Of a stretch of DNA of 9,932 nt, positions 1-9,932 are shown piece by piece. Origin of the DNA: Candidatus Helarchaeota ASGARD archaeon Hel_GB_B (lineage in GTDB: Archaea > Asgardarchaeota > Lokiarchaeia > Helarchaeales > HEL-GB-B); NCBI GenBank assembly GCA_005191425.1, contig SUPR01000111.1, positions 1 through 9,932 of the forward strand, given 5' to 3'. The number at the start of each line of letters is the position of its first letter. The stretch's first letter is position 1. The position numbers and the translations under genes were made by a program. The notes under the pieces were generated by a model. It saw nothing but the letters and a program-made list of their open reading frames with translations. It had not been told where the DNA came from and ran no database searches.

Positions 1-2065
1 AATCAAGTCTTAAAGCGATATCTAAAATTGAGTCGCCATTTTTTAGTTGTTGAATAATTTCTAAAGATTGGTCTGGAGTAAAAAAACTTATGGCTGTTGC
101 TCTTCCAAGTTTTGTAATTATATATTTACCATTTTTTTTACTTAGCATATTTTTTTTGTTTAGTTCTTTCAACAAATAATGGAATTCTTCTTCTGCACTG
201 ATCATCTTATCATAAAAAATCTGTATTTTATTGAAATCTAATCCTGAAGCAATACTAGCAAGGAGTTGTGCTTCGACTTCTTCAGGTTCCGCTTCAATGG
301 TTATCATCTCTTCTTTACCATCTAAGAGCGAGAGCGCAATTTGGTCTTCTGTCTTATCCGAGTTAAAAGTTTTTAAACCTAATTCTACCAAAAGGACTAC
401 TTTACCTAATTTATGTCTTTTATAACGTCCAGCTCTACCTGCCATTTGTAAAAACATATTTTGACTTAGATAATCTTTTCCCATTTTCATTGAATAAAAA
501 ATAACTTGAGAAACCGGCAAATCAATTCCTGCTCCAAGGGCATAAGTCGCCACAACGCCTGGTATTTCACCATTTTCGATTTTCTCTTCAATTTTTTTTC
601 GCTCATAATAACTTAACCCAGAGTGATATGCCGGGATCTCTAGTTTATGTCTCATAAACATTCTAGATAATTGATAAGTACCATGTCTGCTATTTGTAAA
701 TATAATTGATGCTCCAAGTTCTTTTTCTTTCTTAACAAGAAATGTTAAATTTAATTCTTTTTCAACATTTGATTTACATAAAACTAAGTGTCGCTCCACT
801 GGAACCGGTCTTGAGTTATAAATTACAGGAATTAACCCAAGCTTTTTACTAATTTCTTGAGTATTTGCAATAGTTGCGGATAACCCAATAATTTGAGCTC
901 CAGCATAAATAACTCTTAATCTTGAAATAAGTCCATCAAGTTCTACTCCTCTGTCTTTATCTCCTAAAGTTTGGATTTCGTCGATAATTATCGTCTGTAT
1001 ATTATCAATTTTTGTAAATTCTCCCTTTCTAATTAAATAATCAAATGCTTCATAAGACGCACAAATTATATCTGCATCGTCTAACCTACTATCTATAATT
1101 ACAAGGTCCTCTCCTTTAACATTAATTCTAGACATACCTACTCTTATTGCAACATTTAGAATTTTTCCATATCTTTTTTTAAATTTCTCAAATGTTGAGT
1201 TAGTGAGCGCGACCAATGGTGCCAAATACAACATTCTTCCACCATTTAACGCCCTAGAAACTCCCGCTAATTCGCCGCACAGAGTTTTCCCTGCAGATGT
1301 TGGCGCAACAATTAATAGATTCTGTCCTTCTAATAATCCATTTGTTATCGCCAGATTTTGGACTGGTAAAAATTCAATATTTTCTTTTTTTAATATTTGT
1401 TTCAATTTAGTTGGAATCTTTAAATCATCTATTTTATATGCAAATATATTTGTTCTATTCTTATGAGGCTCAATTATATCATATAAAGTAAATTCTTTAT
1501 CCTTGGCAGCAATAAATCCTGGTTTTATGATATTTAAAATTCTATTCACATTTCTAAATTTATCTAATATTTTATTAATATTATTCAAAAATTGGTCCGA
1601 AAAACTAAAATTAATGTATTTTAATTCATTTTTTATTTCTTTTAATGCACATTTCTTACAAATAAATTCGTTATAATATAAATATGCATTTTTATAATTA
1701 ATTACATTTAATTTATCATTATTAAAACAGAATCTACATATTTCTACAATTTCATATTTAATTTGAAAATCATTTAACATTTTCATTATATTCTTTAGCT
1801 CATTTTCAAATATTTTCGGAATCAAGACCTTTTTTACACATTTCAACATCTTAAAAAATTCTTTATATTCAATAAAATCTTGAAGTCCTTGATATTTATA
1901 CCATATTTTATAAGGTCTAAATTGACCTTTTTTCTTTTCCATTAATTCTACTCTAATTACAATATCTCGCCTTATATTTTCTCTATTTATTATAGAAAAT
2001 ATTTTTACTTTATCTTTTTTATATGGTATAAATGCTAAAGCTTCTATTCTACTTTTAAAATTCAT
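1..2065 (-). CDS. Archaea-specific Ski2-like superfamily 2 helicase (ASH-Ski2 / COG1202 type); 3' end lies outside the window
   Basis: Manual translation of the minus strand from ATG at 2065 (MNFKSRIEALAFIPY...) gives 688 codons with no stop before the window edge. N-terminal domain has CX2CX22CX2C (CRFC...CKKC, 1738-1649). Helicase motifs: Q motif FLPVQ, motif I APTSAGKT (1306-1283), Ia LAPLVAL, the COG1202-like segment VAIRVGMSRI, motif II DEIQ (982-971), III LSAT, YHSGL, V ATYALGAGIDLP, VI QMAGRAGR (448-425). Confidence 0.93.
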   Translation of the reverse strand, partial: MNFKSRIEALAFIPYKKDKVKIFSIINRENIRRDIVIRVELMEKKKGQFRPYKIWYKYQGLQDFIEYKEFFKMLKCVKKVLIPKIFENELKNIMKMLNDFQIKYEIVEICRFCFNNDKLNVINYKNAYLYYNEFICKKCALKEIKNELKYINFSFSDQFLNNINKILDKFRNVNRILNIIKPGFIAAKDKEFTLYDIIEPHKNRTNIFAYKIDDLKIPTKLKQILKKENIEFLPVQNLAITNGLLEGQNLLIVAPTSAGKTLCGELAGVSRALNGGRMLYLAPLVALTNSTFEKFKKRYGKILNVAIRVGMSRINVKGEDLVIIDSRLDDADIICASYEAFDYLIRKGEFTKIDNIQTIIIDEIQTLGDKDRGVELDGLISRLRVIYAGAQIIGLSATIANTQEISKKLGLIPVIYNSRPVPVERHLVLCKSNVEKELNLTFLVKKEKELGASIIFTNSRHGTYQLSRMFMRHKLEIPAYHSGLSYYERKKIEEKIENGEIPGVVATYALGAGIDLPVSQVIFYSMKMGKDYLSQNMFLQMAGRAGRYKRHKLGKVVLLVELGLKTFNSDKTEDQIALSLLDGKEEMITIEAEPEEVEAQLLASIASGLDFNKIQIFYDKMISAEEEFHYLLKELNKKNMLSKKNGKYIITKLGRATAISFFTPDQSLEIIQQLKNGDSILDIALRLD

Positions 2066-2319
2066 TTATCAAACACAACAAGTAGTAAATTTTTTTAATA
2101 ATTGAATCTATTAATTCAATATCCTTGTTAACTTTGTAAAATTTTTTATTATAATTATTGAATTAATCAAAAAATGCATTTATTATAAATTTTATTTCAT
2201 TTTATACTATTAATATTAAAAATTATTTACACTTACACTCATCCGATGAAAAATCGATACATAAAAATTCTGTTAAATTTTAGTAATTTAGAAATGATAA
2301 ACAATTTAGAAACTAAAAA

Positions 2320-4119
2320 GTGAAGTATTTGGTATCAGAGAAATTTTTATTTTTGCCTATGGACTTAAGAGAGGCAAAAATGAAGGGCTGGGACTATTTG
2401 GATGTCATTCTTATTACTGGCGACGCGTATGTAGACCACCCCGCATTTGGCGCTGCTGTTATTGGCAGAGTCCTAGAAAACATCGGGCTTAAAGTAGGTA
2501 TAATTTCCCAGCCACAAGATCAAGAAGATTATACTTGTTTAGGAACTCCAAGATTATTTTTTGGGATTACTGCTGGAAATTTAGATTCAATGTTAAGTAA
2601 TTATACTCCTTTGAAAAAGAAACGGGATAGAGATGTCTATTCTCCGGGTGGAAAAGTTGGGCTGAGACCTGATCGCGCGATAATTCATTATACTAATAAA
2701 GTCAAGAAGTTTTTCAAAAAAATTCCCATAATTATTGGTGGTATAGAAGCCAGTTTAAGAAGATTCGTCCATTATGATTATTGGGACAACAAATTACGGC
2801 GTTCCATTTTATTTGATTCAAAAGCTAATTTACTTGTTTATGGAATGGGTGAAAAACCCATTATTCAGGTCGCTAAAGATTTAAAAAATGGTAAATCAAT
2901 AAACGAACTCCAAAATATTAGGGGTACTTGCGTAAAAATTAAATCTCCACCTAAAAATGCTCTATATCTTCCATCTTATTCAGACCTAAAAAGTGAGAAT
3001 GACAAGTTAATTGATGCATTTTTGCTAATTCATAAGAATTCCAATCCATATACTGCCAAACCTCTTGTCCAGCTCCAAGATAACTTATTTTTACTACAAA
3101 ATCTTCCAATATTACCACTAAAATCCTCGGAATTGGACAATATTTATGAACTACCTTATCAATATAAGCCGCATCCAAAATATAAGGAAGAAATTCCTGC
3201 GTTCAAAACTGTTGTTAATTCGATAATTACTCATAGAGGCTGTTTTGGTGATTGTAATTTTTGCTCCTTAACTATTCATCAAGGTAAAATTATTCAAGAC
3301 CGCTCCATAGAATCTGTCATACGCGAAATAAAAAGGATTTCAAAATTGGATTCCTTTCATGGCACAATCTCTGATTTAGGCGGCCCATCTGCAGAGATGT
3401 TTGGCTTGGACTGTAAAATTAAAAAGTATTGTACTGATAAAAGTTGCTTGCTACCAGAAATCTGTCCCCATCTTGTAATCGATTTCTCGAAATTCAAATT
3501 ATTATTGAATAAAGCTCGCAAAATTCCTGGCATAAAACACATATTTATTAGTTCTGGCTTTAGGTTTGATTTATTACTTGAAGATAAAGAATTCTTAGAA
3601 GAACTCCTAAGAGACCATATCTCAGGTCAATTGAAAATTGCTCCAGAACATATAATTGATTATATTACTGTAAAAATGATGAATAAAGTTTCATCTAAGA
3701 AGTTTTTTACGTTTTACAAACAATTTAAAGAAATAACTAAAATGATCGGTAAAAAAATATTTTTAGTCCCCTATTGGATGTCTGCACACCCTGGTACCTC
3801 ATTAGAGCACCAAATAAAACTTGCTGAATTTCTTAAGAAAAACAATTTATACGTAAAACAAACTCAAACCTTTACACCAACTCCCATGACTGCTTCCACG
3901 TGTATGTATTTTACTGGAAAAGACCTAAATAAAAATAAAATTCATGTCCCCTACACTTTTAAAGAGAAAAAATTGCAAAAATCATTACTTCATTTTAAAG
4001 ACCCTAAACAATATGATAAAATTAGAGAGGCATTAAAATTGTGTAAAAGAGAAGATTTAATTGGAAGCCACAAAAATGCACTAATCAAAAACATTACCAA
4101 GAAAAAAAATCATTCTTAA
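2320..4119 (+). CDS. ygiQ: YgiQ family (UPF0313) radical SAM protein
   Basis: 599 aa. YgiQ-type N-terminus FLPMDLREAKMKGWDYLDVILITGDAYVDHPAFG, plus GITAGNLDSM, IIGGIEASLRRFVHYDYW, radical SAM motif RGCFGDCNFC (CX3CX2C), DLGGPS, GQLKIAPEH, YWMSAHPG and QTFTPTPMT. The start is uncertain (GTG 2320 or TTG 2329; no clear RBS). Confidence 0.93.
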   Translation: MKYLVSEKFLFLPMDLREAKMKGWDYLDVILITGDAYVDHPAFGAAVIGRVLENIGLKVGIISQPQDQEDYTCLGTPRLFFGITAGNLDSMLSNYTPLKKKRDRDVYSPGGKVGLRPDRAIIHYTNKVKKFFKKIPIIIGGIEASLRRFVHYDYWDNKLRRSILFDSKANLLVYGMGEKPIIQVAKDLKNGKSINELQNIRGTCVKIKSPPKNALYLPSYSDLKSENDKLIDAFLLIHKNSNPYTAKPLVQLQDNLFLLQNLPILPLKSSELDNIYELPYQYKPHPKYKEEIPAFKTVVNSIITHRGCFGDCNFCSLTIHQGKIIQDRSIESVIREIKRISKLDSFHGTISDLGGPSAEMFGLDCKIKKYCTDKSCLLPEICPHLVIDFSKFKLLLNKARKIPGIKHIFISSGFRFDLLLEDKEFLEELLRDHISGQLKIAPEHIIDYITVKMMNKVSSKKFFTFYKQFKEITKMIGKKIFLVPYWMSAHPGTSLEHQIKLAEFLKKNNLYVKQTQTFTPTPMTASTCMYFTGKDLNKNKIHVPYTFKEKKLQKSLLHFKDPKQYDKIREALKLCKREDLIGSHKNALIKNITKKKNHS

Positions 4120-5465
4120 TTTTCTCTTGAGTTATTATAGGTCATCATTGACTGCAATGCTTCTAACGCTCTTTCTATATTTTGTATATATGTAGTTATT
4201 TGTAAATTTTTTAGTCCATTAAGGATTCTTGTCAATGATGGTCTTTCAGTTTGAATTATCACTGCGATTATAGGTTTATTAGGGAATTTTCTTTTTAAAT
4301 GTTTAAATTTTTCTTCTACATCAAATTCAATTTCCTTGAAAATTTCTAAAATAATTATGATTGCATCGATATTAGGGTCGTTCAATAAGGTCTCTGCAGC
4401 TATTCTATATTTTTCTCCCACTTCTTCTCCATCAAACCTTGTTGGGGGCCAATAATCTACAGGATTATATTGTTGATTGCATTTATGGAGGACATTTTCT
4501 CGTAATATTAATTTTGATTGCTCTGTTAATTCTCCAAGTTCAAATCCATAATCATTTAATTTTGATATTATCAATGACAATGCCCCGCTACTAGGTCCAA
4601 TGAGTCCAATTTTATTTCCCTTTAATTGTGGGTTCTGGACAAAAGCTTTTGAAATTTCAAATAAATCTTGATAATCACTAACTGGAATTGCATTAAATTT
4701 CTCAAGAATATTTATTGGTGAATCTTTTGATGGTTTCAAAAAGAGAATTGGCTTTATTTTTGATATTTCTTTAACTTTTTTGCATAATTTTTCATTAATT
4801 TTTCTTAAAAATAAGAGAATCACTTTTGTTTTATCATCTTCACCTAAATATTCAAGTACTTCCGATTCATTAACATCACATGCTTCACCTAAATGAACTA
4901 TTTTACTAAAACCTATACCATGTTCTGGATTCCACCACCCACAACCACCAGCTAATCCTCCACTCTGAGCAATATAACCAACATTTCCCTCTTTTAATAT
5001 ACACCTCACCGGAATGATTGATGTTGTAAAATCATTATTAAAATTAATTATACCTATAGTATTTGAACCTACTATCCTAACATTATTTTCTTTTGCCATT
5101 TTTTTTAGTTTTAGTTCCATATTTTTTGTCAAAAACGAACTTTCAATCATTAAAAATTTTACTCCCAATTTAATACATGCTTCAGTGGACTTCATTACTT
5201 TTTGGGGTGGTAATACTACTATCCCTAAATCTGGAACTTCAGGAAGATCTGAAATTGCTTTAAATGGTTTTATCCCTAAAATTTCATCTTCATTTGGGTT
5301 TACAAGAAATATTTTACCCTTATAATTAAGTGTTTGCAGATTTTTTACAATCTGATACCCAAATTTTCCTACTTTTCCTGAAGCACCACAAATTAAAACA
5401 CTTCTTGGATTAAAAAACGGCTCAAGACTCCTATTCTTTTGATTTTCTAATTGTATTTGTTTCAT
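4116..5465 (-). CDS. Acetate/acyl-CoA ligase (ADP-forming, ACD) alpha-subunit homologue; CoA-binding protein apparently lacking the catalytic phospho-His loop
   Basis: 449 aa. CoA-binding Rossmann N-terminus (FFNPRSVLICGASGKVGKFG, VNP, DLPEVPDLGIVVLP), GSNTIG (family consensus GPNCLG), AQSGG, HLGEACDVNESEVLEY (consensus SxGNxxDV), and a C-terminal flavodoxin-like domain with NPVD and DPNIDAIIII. No ATP-grasp or GNAT domain is fused. The SHTG motif is absent. Confidence 0.85.
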   Translation of the reverse strand: MKQIQLENQKNRSLEPFFNPRSVLICGASGKVGKFGYQIVKNLQTLNYKGKIFLVNPNEDEILGIKPFKAISDLPEVPDLGIVVLPPQKVMKSTEACIKLGVKFLMIESSFLTKNMELKLKKMAKENNVRIVGSNTIGIINFNNDFTTSIIPVRCILKEGNVGYIAQSGGLAGGCGWWNPEHGIGFSKIVHLGEACDVNESEVLEYLGEDDKTKVILLFLRKINEKLCKKVKEISKIKPILFLKPSKDSPINILEKFNAIPVSDYQDLFEISKAFVQNPQLKGNKIGLIGPSSGALSLIISKLNDYGFELGELTEQSKLILRENVLHKCNQQYNPVDYWPPTRFDGEEVGEKYRIAAETLLNDPNIDAIIIILEIFKEIEFDVEEKFKHLKRKFPNKPIIAVIIQTERPSLTRILNGLKNLQITTYIQNIERALEALQSMMTYNNSREN

Positions 5466-5469
5466 ACTA

Positions 5470-6570
5470 TCACGATAAATACCTATACGCTTCTTTTAAT
5501 GCACTACATGAATTACAACGCACACATCCGGCCTTATTTTGAAATGGATTCAGAGAATTTTTATGTAAAATCTTTCCTAATTCACTATATATATTTAATA
5601 GGTCATCATATTCTGGTATTTTGATATCTTCTAATTTTGCTCCACTTATTGGTCTAACTTGAACAGGAAATGGTATTACCTCTAAATTTGCTATTTTCTC
5701 AAGATTTGCTATTAAATCCTCTATAGATTTTTCTAACCCAATTAAATAATATGTATCAACTTGATTTTTTCCAAATATGTCCAAACAATATCTCCAAGCA
5801 TTAATAAATGTTTCAATACTTGAACTATTCGATTTACCCGGACAATATTTACTAAAACTTTCTGGGTTCATTGTTTCTATATGTACCCCTATTGTTTCTG
5901 CCCCTGCATCATGTAATTTATCAAACCATTTAAAATCTTTTGGCGGTTCAACTTGTACGTGAATTGGTACCCCTAAAGTACTTAATTTTCTGACTATTTT
6001 CTCCATATATTTTGCGCCTTTATCTTCACTATTTACTGTCCCTGTTGTTAATGTAATATGTTTACACACCCCTTCTTCTATCGCAGATTGAGCGGTTTCA
6101 TACAAATCAATTGGATCTTTTTTAGCTACTGTTTCTGCTCTTTTTAACGACTCTTCAATACCGCAAAATACACATTGCTGCCCTGTCCTCCAATAATAAC
6201 ATCTTTGATTTACCGTAGTCGCCAAACAGTCCTCTCCATGAATCAATGCTATTTTTCTCATCATAATATTGTTTGATGTTTTTTTATCATAATAATCATA
6301 TCTTGATGGAATAAGCTCAACTTTTACTAATTCCTTCTCTTCTCTCCAAATTTCAAACTCATTATCTTCATATCTTAATTCAAATATTGATTCTTTTACA
6401 AATTTTGGCCATGTAGGGACATTTGCTATTATGTCTTTCGCTAATCTCAAAAACCTTCCTCCAGCTGGCCCTGCACCAGACCTACGGCCTTTACCTCCAA
6501 ATCTCTTATCATCAAATTTCAAACCATGACAAAATAACTCTATTTTTAATTTTGCTAAATCTTTTAACAA
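5470..6570 (-). CDS. Radical SAM protein, MSMEG_0568-like (TIGR04043 / biotin-synthase-related COG2516 group)
   Basis: 366 aa, TTG start with AAGGAG 10 nt upstream. Matches remembered family features: GRRSGAGP, KIALIHGEDCLATTVNQ, C124-X8-C133-X2-C136, HITLTTGT, IHVQVEPP, GVHIE, PGK, FGKNQVDTY, and C-terminal KAGCVRCNSCSAL (CX2CX2C). Confidence 0.85.
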   Translation of the reverse strand: MLKDLAKLKIELFCHGLKFDDKRFGGKGRRSGAGPAGGRFLRLAKDIIANVPTWPKFVKESIFELRYEDNEFEIWREEKELVKVELIPSRYDYYDKKTSNNIMMRKIALIHGEDCLATTVNQRCYYWRTGQQCVFCGIEESLKRAETVAKKDPIDLYETAQSAIEEGVCKHITLTTGTVNSEDKGAKYMEKIVRKLSTLGVPIHVQVEPPKDFKWFDKLHDAGAETIGVHIETMNPESFSKYCPGKSNSSSIETFINAWRYCLDIFGKNQVDTYYLIGLEKSIEDLIANLEKIANLEVIPFPVQVRPISGAKLEDIKIPEYDDLLNIYSELGKILHKNSLNPFQNKAGCVRCNSCSALKEAYRYLS

Positions 6571-7260: not shown

Positions 7261-7737
7261 ATGAGGTCTTTATTTGCTGGTTGGAGAATCGAATTAATTG
7301 AGAGAAAAAAGGAAAATGGGTGTATTTTTTGTAAATTTCCCGCAGAAAATAATGATGAAAAAAATCACATTATAAAAAGGGGTAAATTTTCTTTCATAAT
7401 TTTAAATGCTTATCCTTATTCGAATGGTCATTTGATGGTCGTCCCTTATGCTCACAAATCATCTCTTGATGAATTGACTGATGATGAAGCTCTTGAAATG
7501 TTTGAAATGAAAAAGATGGCTATAAATGCAATAAAAAAAGCAATGAACCCAGATGGATTTAATATTGGTATGAATCTTGGTAGTGAAGTTTCTGGTGCAG
7601 GTATTCCTGGTCATATTCATTGGCATATTGTCCCTAGATGGCGTGGAGATCATAACTTTATGGCAGTAATTGCTGATACAAGAGTAATTCCAGAGGCACT
7701 AGCCAGCACATATAAGAAAATTAAGCAATTTTTATAG
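7261..7737 (+). CDS. hit: HIT family nucleotide hydrolase/phosphorylase (FHIT-like, Ap4A phosphorylase Rv2613c-like subgroup)
   Basis: 158 aa. Histidine triad GHIHWHIVPRW, plus CIFC, LNAYPYSNGHLMVVPYAH, PDGFNIGMNLG, an N-terminal LFAGWR (cf. LWAPWR) and a C-terminal NFMAVIADTRVIPEAL. Confidence 0.92.
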   Translation: MRSLFAGWRIELIERKKENGCIFCKFPAENNDEKNHIIKRGKFSFIILNAYPYSNGHLMVVPYAHKSSLDELTDDEALEMFEMKKMAINAIKKAMNPDGFNIGMNLGSEVSGAGIPGHIHWHIVPRWRGDHNFMAVIADTRVIPEALASTYKKIKQFL

Positions 7738-7895
7738 AATATTTTTATTATAATAAGAAATAATTAGAAATTATATTTATAAAAAGTCAATTCTATATAA
7801 CTAATTAAAAATAAAATTTAGAAAATATAATTTAAACCAAAAATATAATCAATTTAATATCAATTATAATGTATTTTCAAAAGTAAGTGATTTAA

Positions 7896-8594
7896 TTGGC
7901 AAATAAAAAATGGCTATCTCTTAGGGGTACAGGAACTGATTTAGAAGTAATTGAGGAAAAAGATGACGAATGGGGTTCTGTTACTACAAAAAAGACGGAA
8001 TTTATAGAATCTCCATCTGGCGATTATTATAAAATTACAATCACATATGAAATGAATGGAATTTGGGAACAATTAACGGAGAAAAAGGGCCAAAAATTTG
8101 TCCAAATAGAAATTCCAAATGGTGGTTTAATGTTAGATATGCCTGGATGTCCTCAAATACCACAAGAGGGGCTATTGATCGCATTACCACATAATGCAGA
8201 AGTAATAGACGTTTCAATTACAGAATCTCAATTTAAGACCCACCAAATCGAAAATGAATTAATCCCAATATCTAAGCCCACCAGAGATACTCCTCTTGAA
8301 TTAACCAAAAATAAAACTTATGACCTAGACGAATTTTTTCCAGGTAATTTATTTAAAAACATAGGTTTACAAAAAATCGGCGATATTAAGGTATTACAAC
8401 TTATTGTATATCCCGTACAATATAACCCAATCTCACGCCAACTTAGAATATATTCCAAGATCATATTTGAAATCAAATATAAAAAGAAAAAATCAAAATT
8501 TCGTGGTGGGCTAAGGAGTGGTAGTGAAAAACCAAGGCGTAAACGCATCCCAGAAATTTATAAAGATAGTCTATTAAATTTAGAAAATATATAA
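7896..8594 (+). CDS. Stand-alone peptidase C25 (gingipain) propeptide-domain protein
   Basis: 232 aa, TTG start with an imperfect RBS AAGTGA at 7885-7890. Propeptide_C25-like motifs: IEIPNGG...PGCPQIP...LIALP, YDLDEFFPG, IGDIKVLQLIVYPVQYNPISRQLRIYSKIIFEIKY. It aligns by eye end to end with the prodomain of the next gene. No catalytic domain and no hydrophobic signal peptide. Confidence 0.85.
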   Translation: MANKKWLSLRGTGTDLEVIEEKDDEWGSVTTKKTEFIESPSGDYYKITITYEMNGIWEQLTEKKGQKFVQIEIPNGGLMLDMPGCPQIPQEGLLIALPHNAEVIDVSITESQFKTHQIENELIPISKPTRDTPLELTKNKTYDLDEFFPGNLFKNIGLQKIGDIKVLQLIVYPVQYNPISRQLRIYSKIIFEIKYKKKKSKFRGGLRSGSEKPRRKRIPEIYKDSLLNLENI

Positions 8595-8598
8595 TTTT

Positions 8599-8603
8599 GA
8601 GGT
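8599..8603 (+). promoter_or_regulatory. Shine-Dalgarno site (GAGGT) for the C25 peptidase gene
   Basis: TAAttttGAGGTttgaaaATG: the motif sits between the upstream stop (8594) and the ATG at 8610. Confidence 0.7.
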
Positions 8604-8609
8604 TTGAAA

Positions 8610-9932
8610 ATGATAAAAAATGCAAGATGGTTTCCTTTTCAAGAAAAAGATGAAGATTATGAGGTCGTAGAGACTAAGGATTATGGTAAAATCCCTTCCT
8701 CACCTTTTAGAAAATTAAGGTCAATTCAAACATCTGCTAAAGAATTTAGGTCCGCTGAAAATATCTATAAAGTAAATGTAATTTATCGTCCTAAAGGTGT
8801 CTGGTACAAAAAATTTGAGGAACAATCTCAAATCAGAGCAAAAAAAGATACTATATTCACAGATTTATTAATGCCAAGTGGGGGCGCTATTTTAGAGACT
8901 GGTGCTCCAATGCTACCAACTGAAGGACTTTTTGTAGCTTTACCACCGGGCACTACCTTTAAAGAACTCAAAATAGTAAATTATGTTGAACGGAAATTTC
9001 CCGAGCCTATCGATGTCTTACCAGCCCCAAAACCTACTAAAGATAATGGTAAAGATTGGGTAACTCCAGAATTTGAGCCTAATGAAAAAATATATTCAAG
9101 TGATGAATTATTTCCAGAAAATTTAGTCGAAATAATATCCACTGAAAACAAAATGGGTGATGTCTCAATAGTACATCTAATGATTTATCCTATGCGTTAT
9201 CGCCCAAAATCGAGAGAACTAATTGCTTATAGCAAAATAGAATTAGATGTATATTATACTCCCGCTCCTAAGTCTGGTAGGCGATTTAGAGGTGGTGCTG
9301 GTATAGGTAGAACTTTACCTAGAAGAGCACCTAGACAAACAGTAAGAAAAGAAATACAATCTGAAATTCTAAATTTGGATTCTGTCAATGAAGATACCGC
9401 TTTTGATTCTGATGGCGAAATGGGTATTATGACTGACGGCGGAGAATTTGATGAAGTTATCCCCGAAGAATTTGGACCATTATCTGATCTTAATAATTTT
9501 GGACGATATCTTATTATTACAAAGCCTGATTTAATTAAAGCTTTAGAGCCATTTATAAAATTAAAAGAAAAAGATTATTCTGTTAAAGTAGTAACTGATG
9601 TGGAAATTTATAAGGAATTTGGGAATAAAAAGGACGTTGCAATCCGGAACTTTCTTAGATATGCTTATGATAATTGGGAAGACCCGCCAGAATTTGTCCT
9701 CCTAGTCGGCGATGTTAACCGTATTCCTACACACCATGACCCAGATTATAATTGCGCCTCTGACCATTATTATGCTTGTCTAACTGATTCTGTTTATCCT
9801 GATATTCTTGTCGGAAGAATCGCAATTGATGATGCTACTGGATTAAAAAGATATTTTGAAAAAGTGCTCAAATTTGATAAATTGACATCAAAAGTTAAAC
9901 CAAAAGACTGGCAATTAAGAGTACTCTTGACT
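8610..9932 (+). CDS. Peptidase C25 (gingipain-like, clan CD) zymogen: propeptide, linker and start of catalytic domain; 3' end lies outside the window
   Basis: Manual translation from ATG 8610 (MIKNARWFPFQEKDEDYEVV...) gives 441 codons with no stop. Prodomain motifs: MPSGG...GAPMLP...FVALP, YSSDELFPEN, MGDVSIVHLMIYPMRYRPKSRELIAYSKIELDVYY. C25 catalytic-domain motifs: YLIIT (from 9507, Y300), IRNFLRYAYDNW, FVLLVGD (9693-9713), SDHYYA, PDILVGRI. The His/Cys dyad would lie beyond the window. Confidence 0.9.
   Translation, partial: MIKNARWFPFQEKDEDYEVVETKDYGKIPSSPFRKLRSIQTSAKEFRSAENIYKVNVIYRPKGVWYKKFEEQSQIRAKKDTIFTDLLMPSGGAILETGAPMLPTEGLFVALPPGTTFKELKIVNYVERKFPEPIDVLPAPKPTKDNGKDWVTPEFEPNEKIYSSDELFPENLVEIISTENKMGDVSIVHLMIYPMRYRPKSRELIAYSKIELDVYYTPAPKSGRRFRGGAGIGRTLPRRAPRQTVRKEIQSEILNLDSVNEDTAFDSDGEMGIMTDGGEFDEVIPEEFGPLSDLNNFGRYLIITKPDLIKALEPFIKLKEKDYSVKVVTDVEIYKEFGNKKDVAIRNFLRYAYDNWEDPPEFVLLVGDVNRIPTHHDPDYNCASDHYYACLTDSVYPDILVGRIAIDDATGLKRYFEKVLKFDKLTSKVKPKDWQLRVLLT

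What the first reader, a model, noticed from the sequence alone, without database searches (positions are those of the whole stretch)
7896..9932. Free gingipain prodomain gene immediately upstream of a full C25 zymogen: candidate protease / trans-inhibitor (or chaperone) system
Seen: a 232-aa gene encoding only a C25 prodomain is followed 15 nt later by a gene with its own RBS that encodes a second prodomain plus the C25 catalytic domain. The two prodomains are collinear but diverged (W...D.EV.E.KD; YK...Y...G.W; GG....G.P..P.EGL..ALP; PKPT/SKPT; Y..DE.FP.NL; GD...V.L..YP..Y.P.SR.L..YSKI). The free copy stops at LLNLENI*, which matches ILNLDSV in the zymogen, the apparent end of the prodomain. 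It has an intact frame. Established: Porphyromonas gingivalis gingipain prodomains act as folding helpers, and recombinant prodomains inhibit the mature enzymes tightly in trans. Inference: this is a maintained, dedicated gene whose product re-inhibits the activated protease, chaperones it, or serves a prodomain-less C25 gene further downstream. I am not aware of a described natural stand-alone C25 prodomain inhibitor operon.
Basis: partly seen in the sequence, partly recalled or inferred. Interest (0 to 1): 0.8.

Follow-up and report, generated by a model that had tools for sequence, protein, structure and literature searches.

The report
Free gingipain-type prodomain beside its protease
An Asgard archaeon (Helarchaeales) encodes a cell-internal gingipain-type cysteine protease precursor and, just upstream, a separate, anciently duplicated and conserved copy of the precursor's own inhibitory prodomain, most likely a free-standing safety-catch inhibitor that has not been described for this protease family.

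Summary
Window 7896-8594 (+) encodes a 232-aa protein (F) that is only a C25 prodomain (PF08126). Fifteen nt later, 8610-9932 (+) encodes a prodomain plus the start of a C25 catalytic domain (Z), cut by the contig end.

- **Relatedness:** F and Z's prodomain are 30% identical (E 4e-34), and F ends where the prodomain ends.
- **Conservation:** the F-Z pair occurs in every Helarchaeales locus recovered, across two families. No F orthologue continues into a catalytic domain.
- **Origin:** trees show one duplication older than the family split.
- **Selection:** F is under purifying selection (omega 0.10, CI 0.05-0.19).
- **Structure:** F folds like the RgpB and Kgp prodomains. It is predicted to dock on Z's catalytic domain with its PTRD loop at the His/Cys/Asp site (score 0.88, best control 0.00). 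A solved look-alike complex exists, so this shows likeness, not binding.
- **Location:** neither protein has a hydrophobic N-terminus, so both look cytoplasmic.

My best reading is a trans-acting prodomain-like inhibitor of a cytoplasmic C25 protease. Inhibition itself is an inference.

Free C25 prodomain genes also arose independently elsewhere: a bacterial F+Z pair, a split zymogen and orphan copies. This scan has noted similar cases on other DNA. I found no paper describing them. I rate it a new variant of a known kind, of moderate interest.

The parts
7887..7891 (+). Shine-Dalgarno-like GTGAT, 4 nt before the TTG start of F
   Evidence: Orthologues carry GGTGAT/GGTGA at the same spacing before their start codon. 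The N-terminus MxNKKWLS is conserved and matches MIKNARWF of Z.
7896..8594 (+). F: free-standing C25 prodomain gene, 232 aa, TTG start
   Evidence: PF08126 is its only Pfam hit. The AlphaFold model has pLDDT 88.6, and Foldseek matches only the Kgp (5MUN) and RgpB (4IEF) prodomains, E 4e-12 to 1e-10. Orthologues are 54-93% identical and all 230-234 aa. omega is 0.10.
8265..8288 (+). F residues 124-131 (PISKPTRD): counterpart of the RgpB inhibitory loop
   Evidence: phmmer aligns this segment to RgpB prodomain GVISRAENP, which contains Arg126 (loop defined in PMC4138498). P124, T129 and D131 are invariant in both F and Z. In the predicted complex, F residues 126 and 128-134 and Z's His496, Cys530 and Asp447 are all listed among the interface residues.
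8544..8591 (+). F C-terminal tail, residues 217-232 (R-x-P...D..LN..N[IV]); conserved end of the prodomain module
   Evidence: R217, P219, L227, N228 and N231 are invariant in 11 F proteins. Residues 217-225 lie in the predicted interface. In the full-length Z model the homologous helix is ordered and is followed by a disordered stretch.
8595..8609 (+). 15-nt F-Z spacer with GAGGT (8598-8602)
   Evidence: Read directly. In the other loci with an intact Z gene the spacers are about 13-29 nt, most with a purine-rich GGTG/GAGGT motif. This implies one transcript with separate translation starts (inference).
8610..9392 (+). Z prodomain, residues 1-261, with its own loop LPAPKPTKD at 9018-9044
   Evidence: PF08126 E 1.7e-10; alignment to F.
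9393..9932 (+). Z linker and first ~150 residues of the C25 catalytic domain, truncated by the contig end
   Evidence: PF01364 profile positions 1-163 of 374. The window equals the whole contig. The complete orthologue is 630 aa with NYRGHG and FSIACLN aligned to RgpB His211 and Cys244.

Best explanation
F and Z form a two-gene operon for a cytoplasmic gingipain-type (C25, clan CD) cysteine protease with two safety catches. Z is made as a zymogen of about 630 aa whose own N-terminal prodomain covers the active-site face. F is an ancient paralogue of that prodomain, translated separately from the same transcript. It binds the same face of the catalytic domain in trans: its P-x-x-x-P-T-[R/K]-D loop lies at the His/Cys/Asp site and its conserved C-terminal tail packs against the domain. 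F would therefore re-inhibit, or set an activation threshold for, enzyme that has shed its own prodomain. This works like stand-alone propeptide-like inhibitors of other protease families. Shown: gene structure, homology, fold, age, conservation and purifying selection. Predicted: docking. Inferred: inhibition, cytoplasmic location and co-transcription.
For: - **Domain content:** F has PF08126 only; Z has PF08126 plus PF01364. F against Z's prodomain gives E 4e-34.
- **Conservation of the pair:** it is found in 4 of 7 species representatives of the order (G000, G002, G004, G006). A fifth, G001, has Z cut at a contig start. Four further public loci with an intact Z gene (L027-L030) show the same pair, and a fifth (L031) keeps F beside a Z remnant.
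- **Constant end point:** all F copies end at the same position.
- **Age:** the first tree gives an F clade (97/94) and a Z clade (99/97), each splitting into the two families. The second tree keeps Z monophyletic at 100/99 with both F groups outside it. The duplication is therefore older than the family split.
- **Selection:** omega for F is 0.105, CI 0.05-0.19, at dS 0.30.
- **Fold:** the model matches only 5MUN and the 4IEF prodomain chains.
- **Docking:** the predicted complex of F with Z's catalytic domain scores ipSAE 0.88 against a best control of 0.00. That mark was reached by 58 of 80 solved complexes and 2 of 110 mismatched pairs. The runs share at least 72% of contacts and the partner pLDDT is at least 84. 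The interface includes Z His496, Cys530, Asp447 and Arg445, the F loop 126-134 and the F tail 217-225.
- **Interface conservation:** these positions are somewhat more conserved within F (0.69 vs 0.61, p 0.03) and between F and Z's prodomain (41% vs 28% identity).
- **Experimental precedent:** recombinant RgpB and Kgp prodomains inhibit their cognate mature enzymes in trans, with Ki 12 nM and 2 uM (PMC3677877; PMC4138498).
- **Natural trans case:** in L035 a 219-aa prodomain gene sits 8 nt before a C25 gene that lacks a prodomain. That C25 is 44% identical to Z's catalytic domain.
- **No export signal:** neither F nor Z has a hydrophobic N-terminus (maximum Kyte-Doolittle 15-residue mean below 1 in the first 60 residues), whereas the bacterial pair in L034 has one.
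Against: - No biochemical or expression data exist, and no RNA run holds the locus.
- The complex may score well from memory of the solved RgpB prodomain complex 4IEF, so it shows likeness rather than binding.
- The basic residue of the F loop (Arg130) is not invariant: it is Thr and Phe in two family-f2 copies.
- Z already carries its own prodomain, so a second inhibitor looks redundant.
- Most family-f1 F genes start with TTG, which would not favour an excess of inhibitor over enzyme.
- The Kgp prodomain inhibits only weakly in trans (PMC4138498).
- The window's own Z copy is incomplete.
Confidence: 0.58

Rival explanations
1. F is mainly a trans-acting folding helper (intermolecular chaperone) for the C25 catalytic domain, and any inhibition is incidental.
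For: Prodomains of many proteases assist folding (stated in PMC6993865 and PMC3677877). The split arrangement in L035, a prodomain gene followed by a prodomain-less C25 gene, implies that a free prodomain can supply whatever the cis prodomain supplies. The predicted docking fits a chaperone as well as an inhibitor.
Against: Z keeps its own complete, conserved prodomain (omega 0.056), so a second foldase is not obviously needed. In L031, F is intact although Z is reduced to a 27-codon remnant.
Confidence: 0.2
2. F acts on a different target than the adjacent Z, for example another clan CD protease of the cell or a foreign C25 enzyme, or it has a non-protease role for its beta-sandwich.
For: Orphan free prodomain genes exist with no adjacent C25 gene (L032 from a Nitrospira MAG, L033). 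L031 keeps F without Z. The genome holds other clan CD-like proteins: CHAT-like ORFs on C156, C158 and C78, and a fragmented prodomain-less C25 on C163.
Against: F-Z adjacency at about 13-29 nt has been kept since before two families diverged. Gingipain prodomains are selective for their cognate enzyme (PMC3677877). The F interface positions are the ones shared with Z's own prodomain.
Confidence: 0.1
3. F-Z is a triggered switch: a latent cytoplasmic caspase-fold protease held by a sacrificial inhibitor. Loss of the inhibitor releases the protease, as in toxin-antitoxin or securin-separase logic, possibly in antiviral defence or a cell-cycle step.
For: Both proteins look cytoplasmic. An inhibitor-like gene lies upstream of the effector. 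The inhibitor is retained after effector loss in L031. The locus is a strain-level divergence hotspot: 85-92% DNA identity against 100% in the flanks. Three assemblies break inside Z. An invariant Arg207 lies in the disordered F linker and could be a cleavage site.
Against: There is no PADLOC hit. The neighbours are housekeeping-type genes rather than a defence island. The hotspot has low dN/dS, which points to recombination rather than an arms race. No trigger is known.
Confidence: 0.09
4. F is a decaying remnant of a tandem duplication with no function.
For: It clearly arose by duplication of the 5' part of Z.
Against: The frame is intact and the end point is the same in eleven F proteins aligned, from the nine loci examined plus P0005 and P0009, across two families. 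omega is 0.10 with CI below 0.2. The model is a confident compact fold.
Confidence: 0.03

Closest known systems
N-terminal prodomains of Porphyromonas gingivalis gingipains RgpB and Kgp (PDB 4IEF, 5MUN; Pfam PF08126)
   Same: Same family and fold. The equivalent loop faces the active site in the predicted complex. The recombinant gingipain prodomains inhibit their mature enzymes in trans (PMC3677877, PMC4138498).
   Different: The gingipain prodomains are part of the protease polypeptide, are secreted with it and are degraded on activation. F is a separate gene kept beside a zymogen that still has its own prodomain. It occurs in an archaeon and has no signal peptide. Sequence identity to them is only about 17-18%.
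Stand-alone propeptide-like protease inhibitors: Plasmodium SUB1-ProM for subtilases (MEROPS I9, by my recollection) and CTLA-2alpha, crammer and BCPI for papain-like enzymes (MEROPS I29)
   Same: A free protein homologous to the propeptide of a protease, encoded next to the protease genes in the SUB1-ProM case, and acting as a selective tight-binding inhibitor (PMC6993865, PMC4089206).
   Different: Unrelated folds and protease clans (S8 and C1, not C25 or clan CD). Their inhibition has been measured, whereas here it is inferred.
Other free C25 prodomain genes found here and in earlier notes of this scan
   Same: L034: a signal-peptide-bearing 207-aa prodomain gene 30 nt before a type IX secretion (T9SS-type) prodomain+C25 protein. 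L035: a prodomain gene followed by a prodomain-less C25. L032 and L033: orphan copies. NCBI names such proteins 'C25 family peptidase propeptide domain-containing protein'.
   Different: They arose independently: the L034 free copy groups with its own zymogen's prodomain, and the L035 copy groups with prodomains of long C25 proteins. The Helarchaeales pair is archaeal, apparently cytoplasmic, minimal (prodomain plus catalytic domain only) and old at the family level.

Membership tests
Propeptide_C25 (PF08126), gingipain prodomain | Sequence match to the family profile above the curated cut-off | tested here: met
   F scores 53.8 bits against a cut-off of 22. Z's prodomain scores 40.8 bits.
Propeptide_C25 (PF08126), gingipain prodomain | Beta-sandwich fold of the solved RgpB and Kgp prodomains | tested here: met
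   Model pLDDT 88.6. Foldseek hits are 5MUN (E 4e-12, TM by target 0.79) and the 4IEF prodomain chains (E 1e-11, TM 0.70). No other hit falls below 1e-3.
Propeptide_C25 (PF08126), gingipain prodomain | Located at the N-terminus of the same polypeptide as the C25 catalytic domain | tested here: not met
   F ends with TAA at 8592-8594. The catalytic domain is in the next gene, which has its own start and ribosome-binding site. All orthologues show the same arrangement.
Propeptide_C25 (PF08126), gingipain prodomain | Inhibitory loop placing a basic residue in the S1 pocket (RgpB Arg126) | tested here: inconclusive
   The loop aligns and both the loop residues (126, 128-134) and His496, Cys530 and Asp447 appear in the interface list of the predicted complex. 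However, Arg130 is replaced by Thr or Phe in two family-f2 copies, and residue-level S1 pairing was not reported.
Peptidase C25 (PF01364), gingipain family, for Z | Profile match and the catalytic His-Cys dyad | tested here: inconclusive
   The window copy matches profile positions 1-163 at 112 bits, but the contig ends before the dyad. The same-species orthologue L027 has His496 and Cys530 aligned to RgpB His211 and Cys244. Both are invariant in 13 homologues.
Peptidase C25 (PF01364), gingipain family, for Z | Secretion apparatus of classical gingipains: signal peptide, Ig-like domain and T9SS C-terminal domain | tested here: not met
   There is no hydrophobic N-terminus. Complete orthologues end with the catalytic domain at 602-631 aa. 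The PorU models of NCBIfam are matched only far below their cut-offs.
Stand-alone propeptide-like protease inhibitors (functional class, e.g. MEROPS I9, I29) | Separate gene whose product is homologous to the propeptide of a cognate protease | tested here: met
Stand-alone propeptide-like protease inhibitors (functional class, e.g. MEROPS I9, I29) | Measured inhibition of the cognate mature protease | not testable with these tools
   Only a predicted complex is available.

The most novel reading that the evidence does not exclude
The F-Z pair, perhaps with the conserved small coiled-coil protein downstream, is a regulated cytoplasmic caspase-fold protease switch in Asgard archaea. F would be a sacrificial pseudo-substrate inhibitor whose removal fires the protease, in the manner of securin-separase or a protease toxin-antitoxin pair. 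The strain-level hypervariability of F and of Z's prodomain would then reflect selection on that lock.
Probability: 0.1. Interest if true: 0.85.

Novelty: new variant of a known kind. Interest (0 to 1): 0.55.

Why it matters
Gingipain prodomains are known as built-in latency devices of secreted bacterial virulence proteases, and they are being explored as inhibitors. This finding shows that nature has repeatedly turned that prodomain into a free-standing gene. In one Asgard order the free copy has been kept next to an apparently intracellular C25 zymogen since before its families diverged.

If F is confirmed as an inhibitor, it would found a new family of proteinaceous inhibitors for clan CD enzymes. 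It would also give a simple two-protein system for studying how a caspase-fold protease is kept safe inside a cell, in the archaeal lineage closest to eukaryotes. A further practical gain is a set of diverse natural scaffolds for C25 inhibition.

Tried and rejected
- **Continuation of Z on another contig:** the PF01364 hit at the start of C78 is a CHAT-like protein, not the missing half. No contig overlaps the window's end.
- **A prodomain-less C25 gene downstream that F might serve:** none appears in the complete loci L027, L028 and L029. The other PF01364 hits in the genome are CHAT-like ORFs (C156, C158) and a fragmented C25 on C163.
- **Expression:** no RNA holder is listed for the locus, only DNA runs from marine sediment and vent metagenomes. 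I did not lay reads.
- **Defence annotation:** PADLOC gives nothing for F or Z and only marginal LmuB-like noise for the small ORF.
- **NCBIfam:** no model matches F. Z matches the PorU models far below their cut-offs.
- **Atlas search of the small downstream ORF:** only sub-threshold hits.
- **Literature:** searches for PF08126, Propeptide_C25, 'Helarchaeota' with 'peptidase C25', and 'Asgard' with 'gingipain' found no description of free C25 prodomains. De Diego 2013 and Veillard 2013 are not held, so I cite them only through the review PMC4138498.
- **Cleavage sites:** a precise assignment of Z's autoprocessing sites was not possible.
- **Saturated comparisons:** dS is saturated above 1.2 for all pairs except window-L027, so those omega values are rough.
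Full report
**What is in the window**

The window is a complete 9,932-bp contig (G000:C15) of a 3.5-Mb, 29.6% G+C metagenome-assembled genome. NCBI names the closest protein homologues as Candidatus Helarchaeota, an Asgard lineage.

F lies at 7896-8594 (+). It starts with TTG, is preceded by GTGAT and encodes 232 aa. Its only Pfam match is Propeptide_C25 (PF08126, E 1.7e-14).

Its TAA stop is followed by a 15-nt spacer containing GAGGT. ATG 8610 then opens Z, which runs to the contig end. Z carries PF08126 (E 1.7e-10) and the first 163 of 374 profile positions of Peptidase_C25 (E 3.9e-32).

F and the first 261 residues of Z are collinear from residue 1 (30% identity, E 4e-34).

**The rest of the gene and the neighbourhood**

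No other contig continues Z. A candidate on C78 is a CHAT-like protein.

A same-species public contig (L027, 110 kb) is 100% identical to the window over positions 1-5100. It carries the whole locus: HIT hydrolase, F (232 aa, 93% identical), Z (630 aa), a 98-aa ORF, a DRG-type GTPase on the other strand and an S8 peptidase.

Z consists of a prodomain and a catalytic domain only. Its NYRGHG and FSIACLN motifs align to RgpB His211 and Cys244. An invariant Asp447 sits next to the position of the RgpB S1 residue Asp163.

Neither F nor Z has a hydrophobic N-terminal segment, whereas a bacterial pair (L034) does. Both therefore look cytoplasmic.

**Is F a maintained gene?**

- **Distribution.** Among the seven species representatives of the order, F-Z pairs are present in G000 and in all three genomes of a second family (G002, G004, G006). 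The same-genus genome G001 has Z cut at a contig start, so F could not be assessed there. The two genomes of a third family show neither gene.
- **Further loci.** Public assemblies add four more loci with an intact Z gene (L027-L030) showing the same order and a 13-16-nt spacer. A fifth, L031, keeps F beside only a remnant of Z.
- **Constant end point.** All F proteins are 216-236 aa and end within 0-6 residues of the same motif. None continues into a catalytic domain.
- **Age.** In a maximum-likelihood tree the F proteins (97/94) and the Z prodomains (99/97) form sister clades, each splitting into the two families. A second tree with other taxa keeps Z monophyletic (100/99) with both F groups outside it, although F monophyly is unresolved there. 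Either way the duplication predates the family split.
- **Selection.** For the only unsaturated pair (window against L027, dS 0.30), omega is 0.105 with bootstrap CI 0.05-0.19. Z's prodomain gives 0.056. Among family-f1 orthologues F is less conserved than Z's prodomain in 8 of 10 pairwise comparisons (51-68% against 66-77% identity outside the near-identical window-L027 pair), but it is clearly constrained.
- **Range within Asgard.** In 301 Asgard genomes sampled, 55 have PF08126. Only the Helarchaeales hits lie in frames under 300 aa.

**Structure and docking**

The AlphaFold model of F is confident (pLDDT 88.6). It matches only the Kgp (5MUN) and RgpB (4IEF) prodomain structures.

Sequence alignment places F residues 124-131 (PISKPTRD) on the RgpB inhibitory loop that inserts Arg126 into the S1 pocket (PMC4138498). 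P124, T129 and D131 are invariant in both F and Z.

The full-length Z model (pLDDT 83) has two disordered stretches:

- residues 227-242, the Arg-rich linker;
- residues 264-271, immediately after ILNLDSV.

F therefore ends at the last ordered element of the prodomain module.

A complex prediction of F with Z residues 262-630 supports binding:

- The score was 0.88 against a best control of 0.00.
- That mark was reached by 58 of 80 solved complexes and 2 of 110 mismatched pairs.
- The runs share at least 72% of contacts, and the partner pLDDT is at least 84.
- My own alignments were used, so these counts hold only roughly.

The interface contains His496, Cys530, Asp447 and Arg445 of Z, together with the F loop (126-134) and the F tail (217-225). 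Because the RgpB prodomain-enzyme complex 4IEF is solved, this pass may come from memory. It shows likeness, not binding.

Interface positions are modestly more conserved than the rest of F (0.69 vs 0.61, p 0.03). They are also more often shared with Z's own prodomain (41% vs 28%).

**Most likely mechanism**

Recombinant RgpB and Kgp prodomains inhibit their cognate mature enzymes in trans, with Ki 12 nM and 2 uM, and they are selective (PMC3677877, PMC4138498).

By analogy, the best-supported reading is that F is a trans-acting inhibitor, or threshold-setter, for Z once Z has lost its own prodomain. A cytoplasmic protease has no compartment boundary to protect the cell, which gives a rationale for a second lock. 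That rationale is inference.

F lacks two insertions that flank the loop in Z: seven residues after the first beta-hairpin and six to eight residues after PT[KR]D. These might make F less cleavable than the cis prodomain, but this is speculation.

Points against the inhibitor reading:

- Arg130 is not invariant.
- Most family-f1 F genes use a TTG start.
- Z already has its own prodomain, so a second one looks redundant.
- There are no expression data.

The rivals are a trans chaperone, action on another target, a triggered switch and a dead remnant. The last is contradicted by the conservation and selection data.

**Comparison with what is known**

Stand-alone propeptide-like inhibitors are established for two other protease families:

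- subtilases, for example Plasmodium SUB1-ProM, which is encoded beside the subtilase genes (PMC6993865);
- papain-like enzymes, MEROPS family I29 (PMC4089206).

I found no paper describing one for C25.

Free PF08126 genes are nevertheless not unique to this order.

- **L034:** a T9SS-type bacterial contig has a 207-aa free prodomain, with a signal peptide, 30 nt before a prodomain+C25 protein. The free copy groups with that protein's own prodomain, so the duplication was independent.
- **L035:** a 219-aa prodomain gene sits 8 nt before a prodomain-less C25 that is 44% identical to Z's catalytic domain. This is a natural split zymogen.
- **L032 and L033:** these carry orphan copies with no adjacent C25 gene.

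Earlier notes of this scan report similar cases on other DNA:

- e1-4806875 describes a 227-aa plus 613-aa pair, the same sizes as the G004 locus I analysed.
- e1-1374898 describes split zymogens in about ten bacterial lineages.
- e1-1118553 describes an extra prodomain copy beside a zymogen in a type II secretion (T2SS) operon.

I treated these as leads and checked the general claim with my own loci.

**Verdict**

Inhibition itself remains to be measured.

It is a new variant of a known kind: a propeptide-like free inhibitor for a protease family where none is described. Its distinctive features are that it is archaeal, apparently intracellular and old. Interest is moderate (0.55), because the principle is familiar and the phenomenon recurs.

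Noticed in passing
window 7500-9932, compared with L027:9600-12040: Strain-level divergence hotspot. The window and the same-species contig L027 are 100% identical over 1-5100, but only 85-92% identical across F and the prodomain half of Z, returning to 94-98% in the catalytic part. dS is 0.30-0.64 here against 0.01-0.07 in flanking genes, with low dN/dS. Three assemblies break inside Z: G000 at residue 441, L030 at residue 410 and G001:C192 starting at residue 344. This suggests co-existing alleles or recombination at this locus.
   Followed up: partly
L027:12723-13019; L028:10640-10939; L029:7639-7962; L024:9606-10013; L026:6108-6524 (-); L025:5567-5932 (-): A small acidic coiled-coil protein (98-138 aa, no family hit) is conserved just downstream of Z in both Helarchaeales families. 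It may be a third member of the operon. Its gene would lie beyond the end of the window.
   Followed up: partly
L031:1769-3045: In one 3-kb sediment contig F is intact (236 aa), but Z is reduced to a 27-codon remnant beginning MIKNARWFSFQD and then a stop. It is followed by the small coiled-coil ORF, so Z appears cleanly deleted while F is retained.
   Followed up: partly
L035:688-3392; L034:4001-8624; L032:2021-2704; L033:4001-4615: Free C25 prodomain genes arose independently in other lineages: a split zymogen (prodomain gene followed by a prodomain-less C25), a bacterial T9SS-type F+Z pair in which both proteins have signal peptides, and orphan copies in a Nitrospira MAG and another bacterial contig.
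   Followed up: partly
G000:C163:8310-10547 (L002:1231-3468): A second C25-like gene in the same genome has no prodomain and is broken into a 123-aa ORF and a 496-aa ORF, with a TAG and a TAA inside the profile match. The longer piece adds a Cys-rich zinc-ribbon-like region and a C-terminal hydrophobic tail. It is either a pseudogene or an unusual gene.
   Followed up: partly
window 2-2065 (-), 2320-4119 (+), 4116-5465 (-), 5470-6570 (-), 7261-7737 (+): The neighbouring genes are ordinary: a DEAD/Helicase_C helicase (with DUF5814 in the orthologue), a Radical_SAM_N/DUF3362 enzyme, a CoA-binding/Succ_CoA_lig protein, a radical SAM protein and a HIT hydrolase. HIT-F-Z synteny is kept in all family-f1 loci.
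   Followed up: no
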